A stretch of DNA of 64,000 nucleotides, taken from assembly GCA_027218345.1 (NCBI GenBank), contig GCA_027218345.1_3950.1. One strand, written 5' to 3'. This document shows, piece after piece, positions 3,037-60,066 of the stretch. The notes beneath the pieces were generated by a model that did not search any database, was not told the DNA's origin, and worked only from the letters and a program-made list of their open reading frames with translations. The stretch's first letter is position 1, and the number at the start of each line of letters is the position of its first letter. The position numbers were made by a program, and so were the translations under genes. The DNA is from a phage.

Positions 3037-3049
3037 CCTAATAAGACTT

Positions 3050-3132
3050 TGGCATGGGACGGAGGAGTTGAACCCCTTTGAAACGGTGTTGGAAGCCGTT
3101 GCTCATGTCTTAGAGTCTTAACATCGTCCCAC
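3050..3132 (-). tRNA. tRNA, non-canonical 83 nt, anticodon possibly CCA (Trp)
   Basis: Encoded CCA, discriminator G, acceptor gtgggac/gtcccat, T-loop TTCAACT; D region enlarged, fold uncertain. Confidence 0.4.
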
Positions 3133-3275: not shown

Positions 3276-3357
3276 TGGTCGAGGCGGCAGGACTCGAACC
3301 CGCATACTCCACTTACTCGGTTAACGGCTGTTTAGAAGACAGCTGAGATACGCCCCG
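3276..3357 (-). tRNA. tRNA-Arg-like (anticodon UCU), non-canonical architecture
   Basis: Encoded CCA, acceptor cggggcg/cgcctcg, T-arm GCGGG-TTCGAGT-CCTGC, stem-loop gctgt-CTTCTAA-acagc; no normal D-arm found and about 23 nt before the T-arm. Confidence 0.4.
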
Positions 3358-3561
3358 TAATTATCTTTAAAGACTCTCTTAGAAAGCCCTTAAAGATGCC
3401 CACCTTATTAATCATACCGTGGGCGAGTACGCCAAATTCTTTGATGAGGGGTTGGAAGACCTCACTGGTGTTTAGCCTATCAAGCTACTGCCAGAAAAAC
3501 ATTGTCGTTTGCATTTATTTTAAATTTGCAAAATAGACGCTACGCAACGAAAACTAAGGTT

Positions 3562-3840: not shown

Positions 3841-3846
3841 ATTAAA

Positions 3847-3986
3847 TTATCTTTGTAGATAAGCTACCCAGACTTGCTTAAGGTCTGTAGCGATGTGCCT
3901 TTTTGGGTTTAAATCTAGAATTTACCCTTTCACCCTTTGTGGTCGCATACTCACAGGTAAGCTTAATAACTTATCTACAAAGATAA
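3847..3986. repeat. pair of identical 16-bp palindromic hairpins in inverted orientation flanking 108 bp
   Basis: TTATCTTTGTAGATAA at 3847-3862 and its reverse complement at 3971-3986. Confidence 0.6.
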
Positions 3987-4268
3987 TTACCAGACCGTTG
4001 TTTATCATCTTAAGTGCTACCATTACACCAACTCGACATCTGCCGAGTGAAGGAATCGAACCTTCGCCTTTTCTTTACCGAGAAATAGATTGTTTAAGTT
4101 TTGCTGTAAACGGTCTTCTGTAAATTTGTTGAGCCAGACCAAGTTTTAAATTTTTCAAAATTAAATTGGCTTGAAATTTTAAGTAACTTGCTGTATTTGG
4201 TCTTCTGCTCCTTTAAAGGATGCTCGTAAGAACCCTTTAAGGGAGGGGCTAAATAGCCCTCTCAAAAT

Positions 4269-4343
4269 TGGCGAGGTGTGCGAGAATCGAACTCGCGGCT
4301 CAGGAGAGACAATCCAGTATTTTACCCGTCTAAACTAACACCC
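4269..4343 (-). tRNA. tRNA, probable Asp (anticodon GUC)
   Basis: Encoded CCA, discriminator G, perfect T-arm GCGAG-TTCGATT-CTCGC, D-stem gttt/aaat, anticodon loop TTGTCTC with one stem mismatch. Confidence 0.45.
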
Positions 4344-4350
4344 CAAAACC

Positions 4351-4779
4351 CTATGTACCATTTCTTAAGTACTTTTCTTTGCGTCTTGCTGAATTATAGT
4401 ATTTACGCCCTTCAGCATTTTTAGAAAGCCTACAAGCCTCACACCTGCATCCTCTTCTATAACCAGAAACTGTACCATGTTTAATTGGTGTGTACTTCCT
4501 TTCACCAATCTGTTTTGGTCTTGTTGCTTTCGAGTTACAGTGTATGTGGCTATATGAGATGTTATCTAGTGAAAAGAAAAGCTCTTTTGCATTTTCACTA
4601 TGTCTCCACGGAGTCTTATGCTCAATAGAGAAATCATCCCTAGTCATTTCTTTCCCGCACTGAAAACATCTATTTTGATTTGTTTTACATATAAAATCAA
4701 ATAGTAAATCTTTTACTAGCCTGTTTTGTGCAGTTCCTAAACTCATACCAAGCTGTGATTTGTATACTTCATCTCTCAT
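4351..4779 (-). CDS. HNH homing endonuclease
   Basis: HNH/zinc motifs CFQCGKE...IEHKTPW...SHIHCN and C-terminal CxC cluster; embedded in tRNA cluster; internal ATG start preferred over TTG. Confidence 0.65.
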   Translation of the reverse strand: MRDEVYKSQLGMSLGTAQNRLVKDLLFDFICKTNQNRCFQCGKEMTRDDFSIEHKTPWRHSENAKELFFSLDNISYSHIHCNSKATRPKQIGERKYTPIKHGTVSGYRRGCRCEACRLSKNAEGRKYYNSARRKEKYLRNGT

Positions 4780-4802
4780 GACTAAGTATCTCAATAAGTG
4801 TT

Positions 4803-4890
4803 TGGTGTGCCGTGTAGGAGTCGAACCTACCGAGTCTCAATGACAAGGGATTTACAGTCCCCACCGCTACCATCTACGGGATAACGACAC
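4803..4890 (-). tRNA. tRNA-Tyr (anticodon GUA), class II
   Basis: 88 nt, encoded CCA, perfect T-arm GTAGG-TTCGACT-CCTAC, anticodon stem-loop gggga-CTGTAAA-tccct, long variable arm. Confidence 0.6.
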
Positions 4891-4899
4891 ATTTAAATT

Positions 4900-4976
4900 T
4901 GGCGGTTAGTCAGGGATTCGAACCCTGTGCCATTCGCTTAACAGGCGACCGCACATACCTTATGTGCTTCCTAACC
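4900..4976 (-). tRNA. tRNA-Asn (anticodon GUU)
   Basis: Encoded CCA, discriminator G, perfect T-arm CAGGG-TTCGAAT-CCCTG, D-stem gcac/gtgc, anticodon loop CTGTTAA. Confidence 0.55.
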
Positions 4977-5053
4977 TTAATACATTGCCAGACCGTGTTT
5001 TTTCTTTTATCCGCAAAAAGTATTTTGTTGCTGAATACGGTCTTCTGCAAAAT

Positions 5054-5130
5054 TGGAGGCGGGTGCAGGAGTCGAACCTGCCGATACCATGCTAATGAGA
5101 CATGTGAGACGCCCTTTCTCTATACCCGCA
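5054..5130 (-). tRNA. tRNA-Met or Ile2 (anticodon CAU), second copy
   Basis: Encoded CCA, perfect T-arm GCAGG-TTCGACT-CCTGC, anticodon stem catgt/gcatg with loop CTCATTA; T1:C72 mismatch. Confidence 0.5.
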
Positions 5131-5221
5131 ATTCTTAATGACCAGACCAAATCTCTTCTTTGTCCGATTTACCTTCAGATGAATAAGATTAAGTTTGCTG
5201 TAATTGGTCTTCTGTCAAAAC

Positions 5222-5299
5222 TGGCGTTCCAGAAGGGATTTGAACCCTCAAATATCCACTTTGAAAGAGTGGTGACTTTACCATTTTGTCTACTGGAAC
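5222..5299 (-). tRNA. tRNA-Glu (anticodon UUC)
   Basis: Encoded CCA, discriminator G, perfect acceptor gttccag/ctggaac, T-loop TTCAAAT, perfect anticodon stem ccact/agtgg, loop CTTTCAA. Confidence 0.55.
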
Positions 5300-5306
5300 A
5301 TTAATT

Positions 5307-5382
5307 TGGTCTCTGTTGGAGGACTTGAACCTCCGGCCTTACCGCCCCAAACGGAACGCTCTACCAAGCTGAGCTAAACAGA
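5307..5382 (-). tRNA. tRNA-Pro (anticodon UGG)
   Basis: Encoded CCA, perfect acceptor ctctgtt/aacagag, D-arm gctc-AGCTTGGTA-gagc, T-arm GGAGG-TTCAAGT-CCTCC, anticodon loop TTTGGGG. Confidence 0.6.
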
Positions 5383-5548
5383 GATAAACTTTTCAAACTC
5401 TATGTAACCACTTTAACATTATTTTTTAGTGGTTGTCAAGAACTTTTTAAAATATTTTTCAGTATCTTAGAAAAGCTCTCATTTCGTTTCTATGTAGAAC
5501 ATATTAAAGGGTATCAAACACATTGTCAATACCCTTTTTTAAAACTTT

Positions 5549-6964
5549 TTACCAGATGTAACGGTCAATCATTACTGCTTTGAGCATTACGCTGATTGGG
5601 TCAAACTTCTCACCACCAAGCAGAGCTTTTAAAGTGGCTGGAGAGAAACCAGATACCATTGCTACACCGTTATCCTTAACAGACACTTCGCAAGTGCCAT
5701 TACGGTTTGCTAAGTACCAGAATACCAGTTGTGGCATCTCATATCCAGCTTTTTTGTACTTACTCTGAATTGCTTCAAAGTTTGTACGACCGTTAGCTCC
5801 ATCAACCTGATTGAACTCCATATCAGAGAAGATGATAAGCTTACTTGGCATATCTTTCTGAGTCAAGTTGTTTCTCTTACCTGTCTCAAGGATGCGGTCA
5901 AAAGCTGCTTGTAAGTTAGTTGAACCGTATTCAACATGTCGCATTACCTGACGGTGACGGTTCTTTAAATCGCCACTCAGTTCGATGAAATGAGGGTTTG
6001 TTGAATAAACCATTAACTCGTTCTTAAAGCAACCTGTATTGCGTTCTGCTACATACAAGGCAAGTGATACACCAATATCAAGGGCAGTAATTGAGCCAAA
6101 ATTCACCCAAGACATTGAACTTGAAACATCAGACATACATAGAATGTTTTCACCCTCTGCCATCCAGTTTGGTAGTGCTTTCCACTGCTCATTAGCAACA
6201 TCTGCATTACCATACTTAACAGATTTAATCACATCGTATGGGTAAACAGCACCAGCATTAATCTTAGTCTCACCTTTTGATAAAGACTCAATGTAAGCTT
6301 TGTAGCGTTCTCCATCTTTACGGTTAAACAGTTTTTGGTAACGTGCAGCAGCAAGTGAAGGAATCTTACTGTAGTCAATCTTACCAAACTCATTAGCAGA
6401 GATTTTTTGCTCAACCGTATCAGATAGTGCAGACAACAGTGTGCGGTACTCTTTCTCACTTAAGTTTGCAAACTTACAGAAACGTTTTACAAACTGCTTA
6501 TGACGTGGTTTGACTCGTGGTAACCACTTAGCTGCTAAACCTGCTGTTGCAGGGTCTAGTAATGCTGCTTCTAAATGTTTGAAGGCATCTGTCTCGAAAC
6601 GAGTACCTACGAAGATTTTGAAGTCATCAAAACGACCAAGTTCTGCAATCTTATCCATAATGCGAAGAACCTGTGTAGGCTCTAAAACTTTATCTTCAAT
6701 CGCTTGAAGCAAAACTGTTCTGAAGGCTTTACGCTCACCCATGCCTTCTCGTACATCTCGCATATGCAGTAAAATACGAACTGCAACATCAACATCCTCA
6801 CGCAAAGCTTTGTAGAACAGGTCTGGTAAGATTTCTACATTGCTACGGCTTGAACCAGCAGCTTTGTAAAAGTCTACAAGAGCAGACATTGATGAAGTAT
6901 GGTTTACAGCACCATTTTCAGTTCGACCTGCATGAAGGTGCGCATGTTTAAATAACTCGCTCAT
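5549..6964 (-). CDS. vWA-domain protein with MIDAS motif (DUF2828-like)
   Basis: 471-aa ORF; DxSxS motif (MSDVSSSM) followed by vWA-like hydrophobic strands. Confidence 0.6.
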   Translation of the reverse strand: MSELFKHAHLHAGRTENGAVNHTSSMSALVDFYKAAGSSRSNVEILPDLFYKALREDVDVAVRILLHMRDVREGMGERKAFRTVLLQAIEDKVLEPTQVLRIMDKIAELGRFDDFKIFVGTRFETDAFKHLEAALLDPATAGLAAKWLPRVKPRHKQFVKRFCKFANLSEKEYRTLLSALSDTVEQKISANEFGKIDYSKIPSLAAARYQKLFNRKDGERYKAYIESLSKGETKINAGAVYPYDVIKSVKYGNADVANEQWKALPNWMAEGENILCMSDVSSSMSWVNFGSITALDIGVSLALYVAERNTGCFKNELMVYSTNPHFIELSGDLKNRHRQVMRHVEYGSTNLQAAFDRILETGKRNNLTQKDMPSKLIIFSDMEFNQVDGANGRTNFEAIQSKYKKAGYEMPQLVFWYLANRNGTCEVSVKDNGVAMVSGFSPATLKALLGGEKFDPISVMLKAVMIDRYIW

Positions 6965-59550: not shown

Positions 59551-60066
59551 ATGATTGATATCTACTTACAAGATGCTCATGCAGATTTCCTTAAAGAGAT
59601 GCTTAAAAAGTTTATGGCTTCACAGTATGAGAATGAAGCATCTTTTAAAATAGTTACATGTGGTGATGAAGCTGGTTTTGTTGAGATTGAACATGAAGGT
59701 ACTGGTAAGACTGTTTGTAAGCTACCTGATAGTATGTTCTCTAACACATTCTTAACAAAGACTAGTATAAGTGTTAAGCTTGTTCCTCAGATTGAAACAT
59801 ACTCTGGTACAGATTACCCTAAAGGCTTTAAGTCACTGATGAAGCACTTCTTGGATGACTTTGTAAGTAATCTTCTTAGTGAGATAACAGAAAGCCGTAC
59901 AATATTAACTGTAGAGAATATCGGAGGAACTATCAGGATTACTTCTGACCGCTACTCTATGAGTCTCTTCGACTTCGTTCCTAAGAACTTTGATGGTATT
60001 CTGGATGAAGAAGATGACTGTGTAGACTTTATATTGGTTCTTGAACCAGTTTTTGAGGTTAAATAA
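59551..60066 (+). CDS. hypothetical protein
   Basis: 171-aa ORF. Confidence 0.5.
   Translation: MIDIYLQDAHADFLKEMLKKFMASQYENEASFKIVTCGDEAGFVEIEHEGTGKTVCKLPDSMFSNTFLTKTSISVKLVPQIETYSGTDYPKGFKSLMKHFLDDFVSNLLSEITESRTILTVENIGGTIRITSDRYSMSLFDFVPKNFDGILDEEDDCVDFILVLEPVFEVK

What the first reader, a model, noticed from the sequence alone, without database searches (positions are those of the whole stretch)
3990..5214. Recurrent CCAGACC ... GGTCTTCTG inverted-repeat elements filling gaps between tRNA genes
Four tRNA-free gaps (3990-4120, 4134-4207, 4988-5047, 5142-5214) each start with CCAGACC and end with (C)GGTCTTCTG. On the transcribed strand this gives a stem (AGACC/GGTCT) closing a 50-110 nt AT-rich insert. 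They are not cloverleaves and carry no ORF. They resemble the stable small RNAs or processing stems found in other phage tRNA clusters.
Basis: seen in the sequence. Interest (0 to 1): 0.5.

Follow-up and report, generated by a model that had tools for sequence, protein, structure and literature searches.

The report
Phage Y-like RNAs beside Ro60-like gene
The four repeats in this Felix O1-type phage's tRNA cluster belong to a large, undescribed family of small structured RNAs that always lie next to, and on the same strand as, a Ro60-shaped protein gene, so they are probably that protein's "Y RNA" partners; they also closely resemble the unexplained Class I RNAs of Dictyostelium.

Summary
On the transcribed (minus) strand each element reads NRC-AGA-[AGACCNN]-NUW-CAGCAA ... 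[NNGGUCU]-G-GYN. That is a 7-8 bp terminal stem plus a 3-bp outer helix, both with compensatory changes, followed by an invariant CAGCAA.

The gene 333 nt upstream (5549-6964, minus strand; Pfam DUF2828+DUF7788) has a Ro60 fold.

A covariance model built only from 24 elements of distant phages picks E4, E3 and E2 as the three best hits in the 64-kb window (about 28 bits, E about 5e-4). Across roughly 2 Mb of other loci its hits are strand- and gene-specific: 34/34 and 51/51 lie on the protein-sense strand, and 17 of 19 control hits fall in the six control loci that hold the gene.

E1 (130 nt) is the long form. Its V, T, closed acceptor-like and D arms follow the YrlA layout.

The elements lack the canonical Ro-binding motif and fall below the Rfam thresholds, so they are a new variant of Y RNA.

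A model trained only on dictyostelid Class I RNAs also finds these phage and bacterial elements (49/49 on the sense strand).

Expression and protein binding are inferred, not shown.

The parts
5549..6964 (-). Ro60-fold protein gene (471 aa; DUF2828 + DUF7788/vWA), the proposed protein partner
   Evidence: Pfam DUF2828 3.9e-29 and DUF7788 1.7e-43. PHROG 850 'RNA-binding protein'. AlphaFold2 model pLDDT 86, pTM 0.86. The top 12 Foldseek PDB hits are all Ro60/Rsr/phage Ro60, full length, E 2e-7 to 2e-5, TM 0.5-0.65. No significant sequence-level PDB hit.
5140..5216 (-).
   Evidence: R1 covariance model 28.5 bits, E 3.6e-4, best hit in the window. Stem AGACCAA/UUGGUCU followed by UUA-CAGCAA.
4986..5049 (-).
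   Evidence: R1 28.0 bits, E 4.6e-4. Rfam Dicty_Class_I_RNA 24.0 bits. Dicty-only model R2 16.9 bits. The interior is replaced by unrelated sequence in relatives while the ends are kept.
4132..4209 (-).
   Evidence: R1 27.6 bits, E 5.6e-4. Rfam Dicty_Class_I_RNA 15.3 bits.
3988..4122 (-).
   Evidence: It has the same 5'/3' module as E2-E4. The MFE fold and the RNAalifold consensus of 6 orthologues both give outer stem, V hairpin, T arm, AS hairpin and D arm.
4101..4106 (-). Invariant CAGCAA of E1 (equivalents: 4188-4193 in E2, 5028-5033 in E3, 5195-5200 in E4)
   Evidence: Invariant in all four copies and present in every one of the 72 elements collected by a scan that required CAGCAA. U at -2 occurs in 70/72 and A/U at -1 in 71/72, and those two positions were not selected for.
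4049..4065 (-). E1 T-arm mimic GAAGG-UUCGAUU-CCUUC
   Evidence: Partial Rfam tRNA match to model positions 43-63. Conserved in orthologues.
4031..4048 (-). E1 closed acceptor-like (AS) hairpin ACUCGGC-AGAU-GUCGAGU
   Evidence: Fully compensatory between genera: ACACG/CGUGU in SUSP1 and Sf19, ACCCUUC/GAAGGGU in Mijalis. It follows the T stem with no spacer and is followed by U-G before the D stem, as at tRNA positions 8-9.
4013..4029 (-). E1 D-arm mimic GGUGU-AAUGGUA-GCACU (loop with GG)
   Evidence: Equivalent arms occur in distant long forms.
4067..4089 (-). E1 V (variable-arm-like) hairpin
5410..5529 (-). Two sigma70-like promoter matches (TTGACA-17-TAATAT at 5529-5501; TTGACA-18-TAAAGT at 5439-5410) between the gene and tRNA-Pro; a terminator-like hairpin at 5537-5506
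   Evidence: Consensus scan only: 6 promoter-like sites found against 8.4 expected, so this is weak evidence.
4900..5383 (-). Flanking tRNA genes (Pro, Glu, Met, Asn) that bracket E4 and E3 with 4-9 nt spacers
   Evidence: ARAGORN. Spacers read from the sequence.

Best explanation
E1-E4 are genes for small non-coding RNAs that partner the Ro60-fold protein encoded just upstream. They are a phage version of the Ro60/Y-RNA ribonucleoprotein.

Shown: (a) the protein has the Ro60 ring+vWA fold; (b) the RNA module is a terminal 7-8 bp stem, then 2-3 nt and an invariant CAGCAA on the 5' side, an A-rich run before the 3' strand, and YCUG at the 3' end, and it defines a large family that covaries and is found almost only next to, and on the same strand as, genes of this protein family in phages and in bacterial and archaeal genome assemblies; (c) E1 adds a tRNA-like domain in the YrlA order (V, T, closed acceptor-like stem, D).

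Inferred: the RNAs are transcribed with the tRNAs from promoters downstream of the protein gene. They would then be released by the tRNA-processing enzymes, because only 4-9 nt separate them from the flanking tRNAs. RNase P at the next tRNA's 5' end and 3' trimming would leave the terminal helix as an exonuclease block. The stem+CAGCAA module would be the protein's binding site. The variable loops, including E1's tRNA mimic, would tether or gate other factors, as Y RNAs do for PNPase.

The likely biological role is RNA surveillance or repair of tRNA-type substrates, and/or defence evasion. The orthologous protein of Felixounavirus Bas63 (gp130) was reported to counter the Ppl defence system.
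For: - Fold: the top 12 PDB matches are all Ro60.
- Independent model: R1 was built from 24 elements of non-Ounavirinae phages. Its three best hits in the window are E4, E3 and E2 (27.6-28.5 bits, E about 5e-4), and the next hit scores 16 bits.
- Linkage in viral loci: in 54 viral loci not used for training, 34/34 hits (E<=0.05) lie on the protein-sense strand, mostly within 500 nt of the gene.
- Linkage in genome assemblies: in 80 bacterial/archaeal assembly loci with a homologue, 51/51 hits are sense-strand, in 39 loci.
- Control: in 908 kb of phage DNA picked by a loose sequence pattern, 17 of 19 hits fall in the 6 loci that contain the gene.
- Motif-first test: 75 of 150 TWCAGCAA sites on the sense strand have a perfect 7-bp partner for positions -10..-4. 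The shuffled control gives 5.8%, and the antisense strand gives 3/94.
- Scan: 102 sense hits against 17 antisense and 13.7 in shuffles, with 52 within 500 nt of the gene.
- Covariation on 62 untrained hits: 98.8% of cells paired against 63% shuffled, and 161 double-change cells against 42 (0/500 shuffles).
- Long forms in a distant phage match Rfam YrlA at 38.9, 28.7 and 25.2 bits (E 2.6e-6 to 0.025).
- E1's AS stem is fully compensatory among genera, and RNAalifold recovers the V/T/AS/D layout.
- Strand: G.U wobbles in the Mijalis E4 and E1 stems fit the minus strand only.
- YrlA criteria from Chen et al. 2014, PMC4201824; Bas63 gp130 from PMC11482910.
Against: - There are no expression or binding data; everything about the RNP is inferred from genomic linkage and analogy.
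- The canonical Ro60-binding motif GNCGAAN0-1G is absent.
- The protein is not a TROVE protein by sequence.
- E1 gets no Rfam YrlA hit even at E<=10, and relatives stay below the gathering score of 69.
- Single-sequence folding energies are ordinary (z -0.8 to -2.1).
- About a third of the viral DUF2828 loci (24 of 75) and about half of the assembly loci (41 of 80) show no detectable element.
- 33 of 57 stem-bearing pattern matches had no DUF2828 gene inside the (often short) stretch of DNA held.
- The promoter matches are no more frequent than chance.
Confidence: 0.78

Rival explanations
1. The elements are cis-acting sites on the mRNA or precursor transcript, such as autoregulatory operators or stabilisers bound by the DUF2828 protein, and not free-standing small RNAs.
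For: In many distant loci the element lies 20-60 nt after the stop codon or within about 100 nt before the start codon of the gene, that is, in its UTRs.
Against: In this phage there are four copies 0.3-1.6 kb downstream, each bracketed by tRNA genes that will be excised. Other loci hold arrays of 3-6 copies (L067, L076, L141). The long forms carry elaborate tRNA mimics, as free YrlA RNAs do.
Confidence: 0.1
2. The elements are spacer or processing hairpins that only guide maturation of the polycistronic tRNA precursor.
For: They lie inside a tRNA cluster with 4-9 nt spacers. About half of the distant DUF2828 loci also have tRNA arrays nearby.
Against: The same module occurs beside DUF2828 genes where no tRNA is within 6 kb (L011, L012, L016, L024, L026, L027). 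Most gaps between tRNAs in this window lack it, and R1 finds nothing else. A processing stem would not need an invariant single-stranded CAGCAA.
Confidence: 0.05
3. The elements are decayed or rearranged tRNA genes.
For: E1 contains T- and D-arm sequences.
Against: The arm order is permuted (T arm, closed acceptor-like hairpin, D arm) and there is no anticodon arm. That layout is conserved, with compensatory changes, across genera and in unrelated phages. E2-E4 have no tRNA features.
Confidence: 0.03
4. The elements are miniature mobile elements or targets of the nearby HNH homing endonuclease, acting as DNA.
For: They have terminal inverted repeats and four copies, and an HNH ORF lies at 4351-4794.
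Against: The copies are syntenic in all Ounavirinae genera whether or not the HNH gene is present. No copies occur elsewhere in 64 kb. There is a strict strand bias relative to the protein gene and G.U wobbles in the stems.
Confidence: 0.02

Closest known systems
Bacterial and phage Y RNAs YrlA/YrlB bound by Ro60/Rsr (Rfam RF02553; Chen et al. 2014, PMC4201824; Thermus phage phiLo Yrl1/2, PMC12135203)
   Same: They are encoded within a few kb of a Ro60-fold gene on the same strand, and their 5' and 3' ends form a stem. One RNA (E1) has a tRNA mimic in the order V, T, closed acceptor-like stem, D, while the other, shorter RNAs lack it (as YrlB does). Several different RNAs occur per genome. Long forms in related loci hit RF02553 at E down to 2.6e-6.
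   Different: The partner protein belongs to Pfam DUF2828/DUF7788, not TROVE. The conserved GNCGAAN0-1G / CGAA motif is replaced by UWCAGCAA directly after the 5' strand of the stem. Scores stay below the Rfam gathering threshold, and E1 is not detected at all. The earlier YrlA survey searched only TROVE-annotated genomes, so it could not have covered this family.
Dictyostelid Class I RNAs (Rfam RF01414; Kjellin et al. 2021, PMC7919456)
   Same: They start with AAG and have a 6-7 bp terminal stem that covaries. The motif (C)CUUACAGCAA follows the 5' strand directly. An A-rich run precedes the 3' strand, and the 3' end is CUG(U). They are about 60 nt long and occur as many clustered copies. Some members carry a T-arm-like hairpin (asu_can_20, ppa_can_99). 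RF01414 is repeatedly the best Rfam match of short forms (24.0, 15.3, 24.3 bits). A model trained only on 22 dictyostelid RNAs finds the phage and bacterial elements: 29/29 and 20/20 hits on the sense strand, best E 7e-5 and 3e-5.
   Different: The Dictyostelium RNAs are eukaryotic, driven by the DUSE promoter, reported as unique to Dictyostelia, and their known direct binder is the RRM protein CIBP. Scores here are below the RF01414 gathering score of 41.5. A fixed-register PWM comparison gives only moderate similarity. Whether Dictyostelium encodes a DUF2828 protein could not be checked.
Metazoan Y RNAs (RF00019)
   Same: They are small RNAs whose terminal helix is the Ro60 binding site and whose loop is variable and recruits other proteins.
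   Different: There is no sequence similarity. The conserved bulged helix GGUCCGA/UUGACC is absent, and no Rfam hit was found.
Stable small RNAs of the phage T4 tRNA cluster (species 1 and 2; from my own knowledge, not tested)
   Same: They are non-tRNA small RNAs encoded between the tRNA genes of a lytic phage and released by tRNA-processing enzymes.
   Different: T4 has no adjacent Ro60-like gene, and no sequence comparison was made here.

Membership tests
Y RNA / YrlA (RF02553) | Encoded within about 4 kb of the Ro60 gene, on the same strand | tested here: met
   The gene is at 5549-6964(-). E4 starts 333 nt and E1 ends 1561 nt downstream of its stop codon, all on the minus strand.
Y RNA / YrlA (RF02553) | Partner is a Ro60 orthologue (TROVE domain by sequence; HEAT ring + vWA by structure) | tested here: inconclusive
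   Fold: met. Sequence: Pfam gives DUF2828/DUF7788, and the best PDB profile hit to a TROVE protein has E 0.75.
Y RNA / YrlA (RF02553) | GNCGAAN0-1G (CGAA) motif near the 5' end | tested here: not met
   All four copies have CAGAAGACC...UNCAGCAA instead. The family consensus is UWCAGCAA.
Y RNA / YrlA (RF02553) | tRNA-like domain in the order V, T, AS stem-loop, D, enclosed by the terminal stem | tested here: met
   Met for E1 only. E2-E4 lack it, as YrlB does.
Y RNA / YrlA (RF02553) | Rfam gathering score (69 bits) | tested here: not met
   E1 gets no hit at E<=10. Related long forms score 25-39 bits.
Y RNA / YrlA (RF02553) | Physically bound by Ro60; tethers PNPase or another effector | not testable with these tools
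   Needs RIP, EMSA or a structure.
DUF2828-linked stem+CAGCAA RNA (family defined here, model R1) | Significant hit to a model built without any Ounavirinae sequence | tested here: met
   E4 28.5, E3 28.0 and E2 27.6 bits, E 3.6-5.6e-4, the top three of 64 kb. For E1 only the 5' part aligns (11.6 bits), because E1 is the long form.
DUF2828-linked stem+CAGCAA RNA (family defined here, model R1) | Sense strand of, and close to, a DUF2828 gene | tested here: met
Dictyostelid Class I RNA (RF01414) | AAG start, short covarying terminal stem, CUGU end | tested here: met
   The window copies read ..AAG-ACCNN...NNGGU-CUGG. The family consensus is AAG...CUG(U). The last base is G, not U, in the window copies.
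Dictyostelid Class I RNA (RF01414) | 11-nt motif CCUUACAGCAA next to the 5' stem (invariant U3, C6, C9, A10, A11) | tested here: met
   C6, C9, A10 and A11 are present in all four copies; U3 is present in E1 and E4 only.
Dictyostelid Class I RNA (RF01414) | Rfam gathering score (41.5 bits), or a significant hit to a dictyostelid-only model | tested here: inconclusive
   RF01414: 24.0 bits (E3) and 15.3 bits (E2). R2: E3 16.9 bits, E 0.26, but family members in other phages reach 29 bits, E 7e-5, with 49/49 hits on the sense strand.
Dictyostelid Class I RNA (RF01414) | DUSE promoter about 60 nt upstream; restricted to Dictyostelia | not tested
   This is a eukaryotic promoter element. By organism the window is a phage of enterobacteria.
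Miniature inverted-repeat mobile element | Dispersed copies, target-site duplications, no strand preference | tested here: not met
   The copies occur only in the tRNA cluster, are syntenic across genera, and are strand-specific.

The most novel reading that the evidence does not exclude
The stem+CAGCAA RNAs and the DUF2828 Ro60-fold proteins form an ancient ribonucleoprotein. It would be a sister of Ro60/Y RNA and would span phages, bacterial (pro)phage regions, perhaps giant viruses, and eukaryotes. Under this reading the Class I RNAs of Dictyostelium are its eukaryotic members. Those RNAs have been known since 2004, are thought unique to social amoebae, and have no known mechanism. Their missing partner would then be a DUF2828-type protein. 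The uncharacterised DdR-21 pull-down protein DDB_G0281243 is an obvious candidate to check.
Probability: 0.45. Interest if true: 0.9.

Novelty: new variant of a known kind. Interest (0 to 1): 0.8.

Why it matters
It gives a first candidate RNA ligand to a very large protein family of unknown function. DUF2828/DUF7788 has 5,784 cluster representatives at 50% identity. It is present in the classic Salmonella phage Felix O1 and in the model phage Bas63, where the protein was reported to counter the Ppl defence system.

It extends the Ro60/Y-RNA principle to a second protein family with a different recognition motif. It also shows again that tRNA mimicry accompanies such RNAs.

It explains unannotated gaps, and some spurious 'hypothetical' ORFs, in hundreds of deposited phage genomes.

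It makes a long-standing question directly testable, namely what Dictyostelium Class I RNAs bind and do. It does so by pointing to a specific protein family and by supplying bacterial and phage systems in which the RNP can be dissected.

Tried and rejected
- Rfam scans of the region: no family reaches its threshold; there are only weak Dicty_Class_I_RNA hits and a partial tRNA hit.
- Sequence-level link of the protein to Ro60 in the PDB: none significant. Only the fold comparison worked.
- Reading the conserved 5' block as a sigma70 promoter (TTTACA...): the spacing and the -10 hexamers do not fit across copies (read). The promoter scan does not call them.
- Intrinsic terminators: no U-tract follows the stems.
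- A family-wide outer helix with a bulged G (UUAA...G-UUAA): pairing is no better than in shuffles. The 3-bp outer helix is specific to Ounavirinae.
- First reciprocal pattern scan: I used the wrong register (AAGG+6N). It mostly returned a chance match replicated in one gut-phage lineage, inside what looks like coding sequence. It was repeated with the right register.
- Fixed-register PWM comparison with Dictyostelium RNAs: only moderate scores, because the G-to-CAGCAA distance varies by +/-1 nt. It was replaced by a covariance model.
- A model of the long form: the MAFFT alignment of 7 distant long forms was too poor to build one.
- Looking for a Dictyostelium DUF2828 protein or DDB_G0281243: it is not in the truncated proteome held as a supplement, and the searchable literature gives no annotation. 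The afdb50 library was unavailable.
- R1 hit at 59807-59877(-): it lacks CAGCAA and scores E 0.31, so I rejected it.
Full report
**1. What is there**

The window is a Felix O1-type phage (Ounavirinae). A 1.4-kb query spanning the finding matches 260 phage records, mostly Felixounavirus. ARAGORN finds 24 tRNA genes, all on the minus strand, between 99 and 5383.

Read on the transcribed (minus) strand, all four share the 20-nt block CAGAAGACCNNNTNCAGCAA. This block occurs nowhere else in the 64 kb, even at 3 mismatches.

The terminal stem is 7-8 bp, not 5 bp. It comes in two versions related by compensatory changes: AGACCGU/ACGGUCU in E1 and E3, and AGACCAA/UUGGUCU in E2 and E4. Outside it, after an AGA/G internal loop, lies a 3-bp helix that differs in every copy but always pairs (UAC/GUA, AGC/GCU, UGC/GCA, GAC/GUC). 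Orthologues of E3 switch between UAC/GUA and UGC/GCA.

Minimum-free-energy z-scores of the single sequences are unremarkable (-0.8 to -2.1). The case therefore rests on comparison, not on thermodynamics.

None of the GenBank records examined annotates these stretches. Felix O1 has only an 'unknown' ORF94 on the opposite strand across E1 and the structured RNA 3' of it, and it is probably spurious.

**2. The neighbouring gene**

A 471-aa ORF lies at 5549-6964 on the same strand, 333 nt upstream of E4.

- Pfam sees DUF2828 and DUF7788.
- PHROGs calls it 'RNA-binding protein'.
- Sequence searches of the PDB find nothing significant. The best profile hit is E 0.75, to a TROVE protein, in the MIDAS motif.
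- An AlphaFold2 model built from 27 homologues (pLDDT 86, pTM 0.86) has as its 12 best PDB matches only Ro60 proteins: Xenopus Ro60, Deinococcus Rsr and Thermus phage Ro60. The alignments are full length, with E 2e-7 to 2e-5 and TM 0.5-0.65.

A preprint on the Felixounavirus Bas63 reached the same structural conclusion for the orthologue gp130. It showed that gp130 counters the Ppl defence system, and it merely speculated that some of the downstream 'tRNA genes' might be Y RNAs (PMC11482910).

The systematic YrlA survey searched only genomes annotated with a TROVE protein (PMC4201824). It could not have covered this family.

**3. The elements form a large family tied to that gene**

I fetched 80 viral loci encoding homologues at 39-99% identity, each oriented with the protein on the plus strand. 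A mechanical scan looked for a stem of at least 7 bp, then 2-3 nt, then CAGCAA, then the complementary strand. In the 75 non-Felix loci it gave:

| Measure | Result |
|---|---|
| Hits on the protein-sense strand | 102 |
| Hits on the other strand | 17 |
| Mean hits in shuffled sequence | 13.7 |
| Sense hits within 500 nt of the gene | 52 |

Because that scan selects for pairing, I ran a motif-first test. Of 150 distinct TWCAGCAA sites on the sense strand, 75 have a perfect 7-bp partner for positions -10..-4 within 185 nt. The rate is 5.8% when the 7-mer is shuffled, and 3 of 94 on the antisense strand.

Features that were not selected for are also conserved: A at -10 (56/72), G at -9 (68/72), U at -2 (70/72), an A-rich run before the 3' strand, and YCU at the 3' end of the stem (G after the stem was the selection filter, so it is not independent evidence). 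Lengths are bimodal, 46-77 nt and 89-183 nt.

**4. Independent membership test for the window**

I built a covariance model, R1, from 24 short elements of distant phages, with no Ounavirinae sequence. Searching the whole window with filters off, the three best hits are E4, E3 and E2 (28.5, 28.0 and 27.6 bits; E 3.6-5.6e-4). The next hit scores 16 bits, E 0.31, and lacks CAGCAA.

R1 results elsewhere:

| Search set | Size | Hits at E<=0.05 | Location of hits |
|---|---|---|---|
| Viral loci not used for training | 54 loci | 34 | all on the sense strand |
| Bacterial/archaeal assembly loci with a homologue at 33-42% identity | 80 loci | 51 | all on the sense strand, in 39 loci, mostly 50-500 nt upstream of the gene |
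| Control: phage DNA picked only by a loose sequence pattern | 908 kb, 100 loci | 19 | 17 in the six loci that contain the gene; the other two are in a tRNA cluster and at a locus edge |

On 62 untrained hits, 98.8% of stem cells pair, against 63% in shuffles and at most 43% when the partner strand is slid. All 7 pairs show double changes (161 cells against 42). That alignment is fitted to the model, so remains the unbiased control.

In the reverse direction, I examined sequence-pattern matches in IMG/VR. Of those with a stem, 24 of 57 have a DUF2828 gene in the stretch held (23 on the same strand). Of those without a stem, 3 of 81 do.

**5. E1 is the long, tRNA-mimicking form**

Inside the shared terminal module, E1 carries, in this order:

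- a V hairpin;
- a T arm (GAAGG-UUCGAUU-CCUUC);
- a hairpin that follows the T stem with no spacer (ACUCGGC-AGAU-GUCGAGU);
- the dinucleotide UG;
- a D-like arm with a GG loop.

This is a cloverleaf in which the acceptor end is closed and the anticodon arm is replaced by the terminal stem. It is exactly the layout that defines YrlA.

The closed hairpin is ACACG/CGUGU in Suspvirus and in Sf19, and ACCCUUC/GAAGGGU in Mijalis. The T and D arms stay constant. RNAalifold on six orthologues returns the same five helices.

Long forms from unrelated phages have the same order, with U at the position equivalent to tRNA U8. In locus L076 three of them match Rfam YrlA at 38.9, 28.7 and 25.2 bits (E 2.6e-6, 0.0024, 0.025; gathering score 69). 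E1 itself is too divergent for that model.

**6. Likely mechanism**

Shown: the protein fold, the RNA family, the strict genetic coupling, and the tRNA mimic.

Inferred by analogy with Ro60/Y RNA: the stem plus single-stranded UWCAGCAA is the protein's binding site, and the variable interior recruits or gates other factors. In relatives the interior of E3 and E4 is swapped for unrelated sequence while the ends are kept. That fits a modular design of this kind.

Biogenesis is also inferred. TTGACA promoter matches lie between the gene and tRNA-Pro, though such matches are no more frequent than chance. Only 4-9 nt separate E3 and E4 from the flanking tRNAs. RNase P and the tRNA 3'-end enzymes would therefore release the elements, and the terminal helix would protect their ends.

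About half of the distant loci also have tRNA arrays, and some have tmRNA, next to the gene. That points to tRNA-type substrates. The Ppl phenotype of Bas63 gp130 points to a role in defence evasion.

**7. Comparison with known families**

The elements work like Y RNAs but fail two membership criteria of YrlA: the GNCGAAN0-1G motif and the Rfam threshold. Their protein partner is also not a TROVE protein by sequence. I therefore file them as a new variant of the Ro60/Y-RNA kind.

Unexpectedly, the best Rfam match of short forms in three different phages is the Dictyostelium Class I RNA family (24.0, 15.3 and 24.3 bits; gathering score 41.5). The published description of that family matches point by point (PMC7919456):

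- AAG start;
- a 6-bp covarying terminal stem;
- CCUUACAGCAA directly after the 5' strand;
- an A-rich run before the 3' strand;
- a CUGU end;
- length of about 60 nt;
- clustered multi-copy genes.

Two dictyostelid members even contain T-arm-like hairpins, GGUUCGAUCC and GGUUCGAAUCC.

To test the resemblance, I built a model from 22 dictyostelid RNAs only (R2). In 937 kb of phage loci it gives 29 hits at E<=1, all on the protein-sense strand and almost all identical to R1 elements (best E 7e-5; E3 of the window scores 16.9 bits). In 518 kb of bacterial-assembly loci it gives 20 hits, again all on the sense strand (best E 3e-5).

A fixed-register PWM gave only moderate similarity, because the spacing varies by one nucleotide.

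Class I RNAs were reported as unique to Dictyostelia. Their pull-down partners were CIBP, GuaB, NdkC and the uncharacterised DDB_G0281243. I could not determine whether Dictyostelium encodes a DUF2828 protein. The family does occur in plants, according to the papers that mention it, and 'mimiviral-like' DUF2828 proteins have been reported.

**8. Verdict**

The elements are best explained as Y-RNA-like partners of a Ro60-fold protein. They are members of a widespread RNA family that, as far as the searched literature and Rfam show, has not been described. The protein family is very large, with 5,784 representatives at 50% identity.

Expression and binding remain to be shown. The possible identity of this family with Dictyostelium Class I RNAs is the most novel reading and is directly testable.

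Noticed in passing
window 3841-3989 (-): A 149-nt structured RNA candidate lies directly 3' of E1. It has a 24-bp closing stem, MFE -48.3 kcal/mol and z -7.2. It is conserved in Felix O1, SUSP1, Sf19 and Mijalis, with six compensatory pairs. An inner hairpin, CAGACC-UUAAGCAA-GUCUGG, echoes the ends of the E elements. It is not annotated in any record seen.
   Followed up: partly
window 4351-4794 (-): A 147-aa HNH endonuclease ORF lies between tRNA-Asp and tRNA-Tyr. It is present in only about 22 of 260 related records, which suggests a mobile homing-endonuclease insertion. It has no Pfam hit.
   Followed up: partly
window 3279-3358 (-) and about 3040-3130 (-): These are tRNA-like stretches that ARAGORN does not call. 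The first gives a weak tRNA-Sec model hit (23 bits), and relatives annotate a tRNA-Arg(TCT) in that region. The second has a T-arm-like GGGGUUCAACUCC.
   Followed up: no
window 3893-4123 (+): A 76-aa ORF lies antisense to E1 and to the 3841-3989 structured RNA, and corresponds to Felix O1 'ORF94, unknown'. Its sequence contains EGIEPSP, the usual translation of an antisense T arm, so the annotated CDS is probably spurious.
   Followed up: partly
L008-L047 (distant DUF2828 loci): In 22 of 40 loci, tRNA arrays and sometimes tmRNA genes lie beside the DUF2828 gene on the same strand, often starting less than 600 nt downstream.
   Followed up: partly
L046 5734-5833 (+): In this variant the stem+CAGCAA module encloses a D arm, an anticodon-like arm and a T arm in normal tRNA order. 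The family stem therefore replaces the acceptor stem, which is a second way of embedding a tRNA mimic.
   Followed up: no
short forms in L016, L019, L024, L026, L060, L067: Many short forms carry one or two extra internal (A)GCAA repeats, for example ...AAAGCAAUU...ACGCAAAC... These could be further protein contacts.
   Followed up: no
L209 1693 (+), contig GVMAG-S-1101171-79: A 42-nt stem+CAGCAA match (AAGGAUUCGUUCAGCAA...GAAUCCUGUU) lies on a contig binned as a giant-virus MAG. No DUF2828 gene is present in the 9.4 kb held. DUF2828 proteins have been described as 'mimiviral-like'.
   Followed up: no
L060 7928-7982 (+): An Rfam NsiR1 (cyanobacterial nitrogen-stress sRNA) hit at 38.6 bits, just under its gathering score of 39, overlaps the 3' end of a putative long-form element.
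   Followed up: no
L023 11696-11922 and L072 4253-4443: Group I intron matches (71.5 and 40.9 bits) lie near DUF2828 genes in two distant phage contigs.
   Followed up: no
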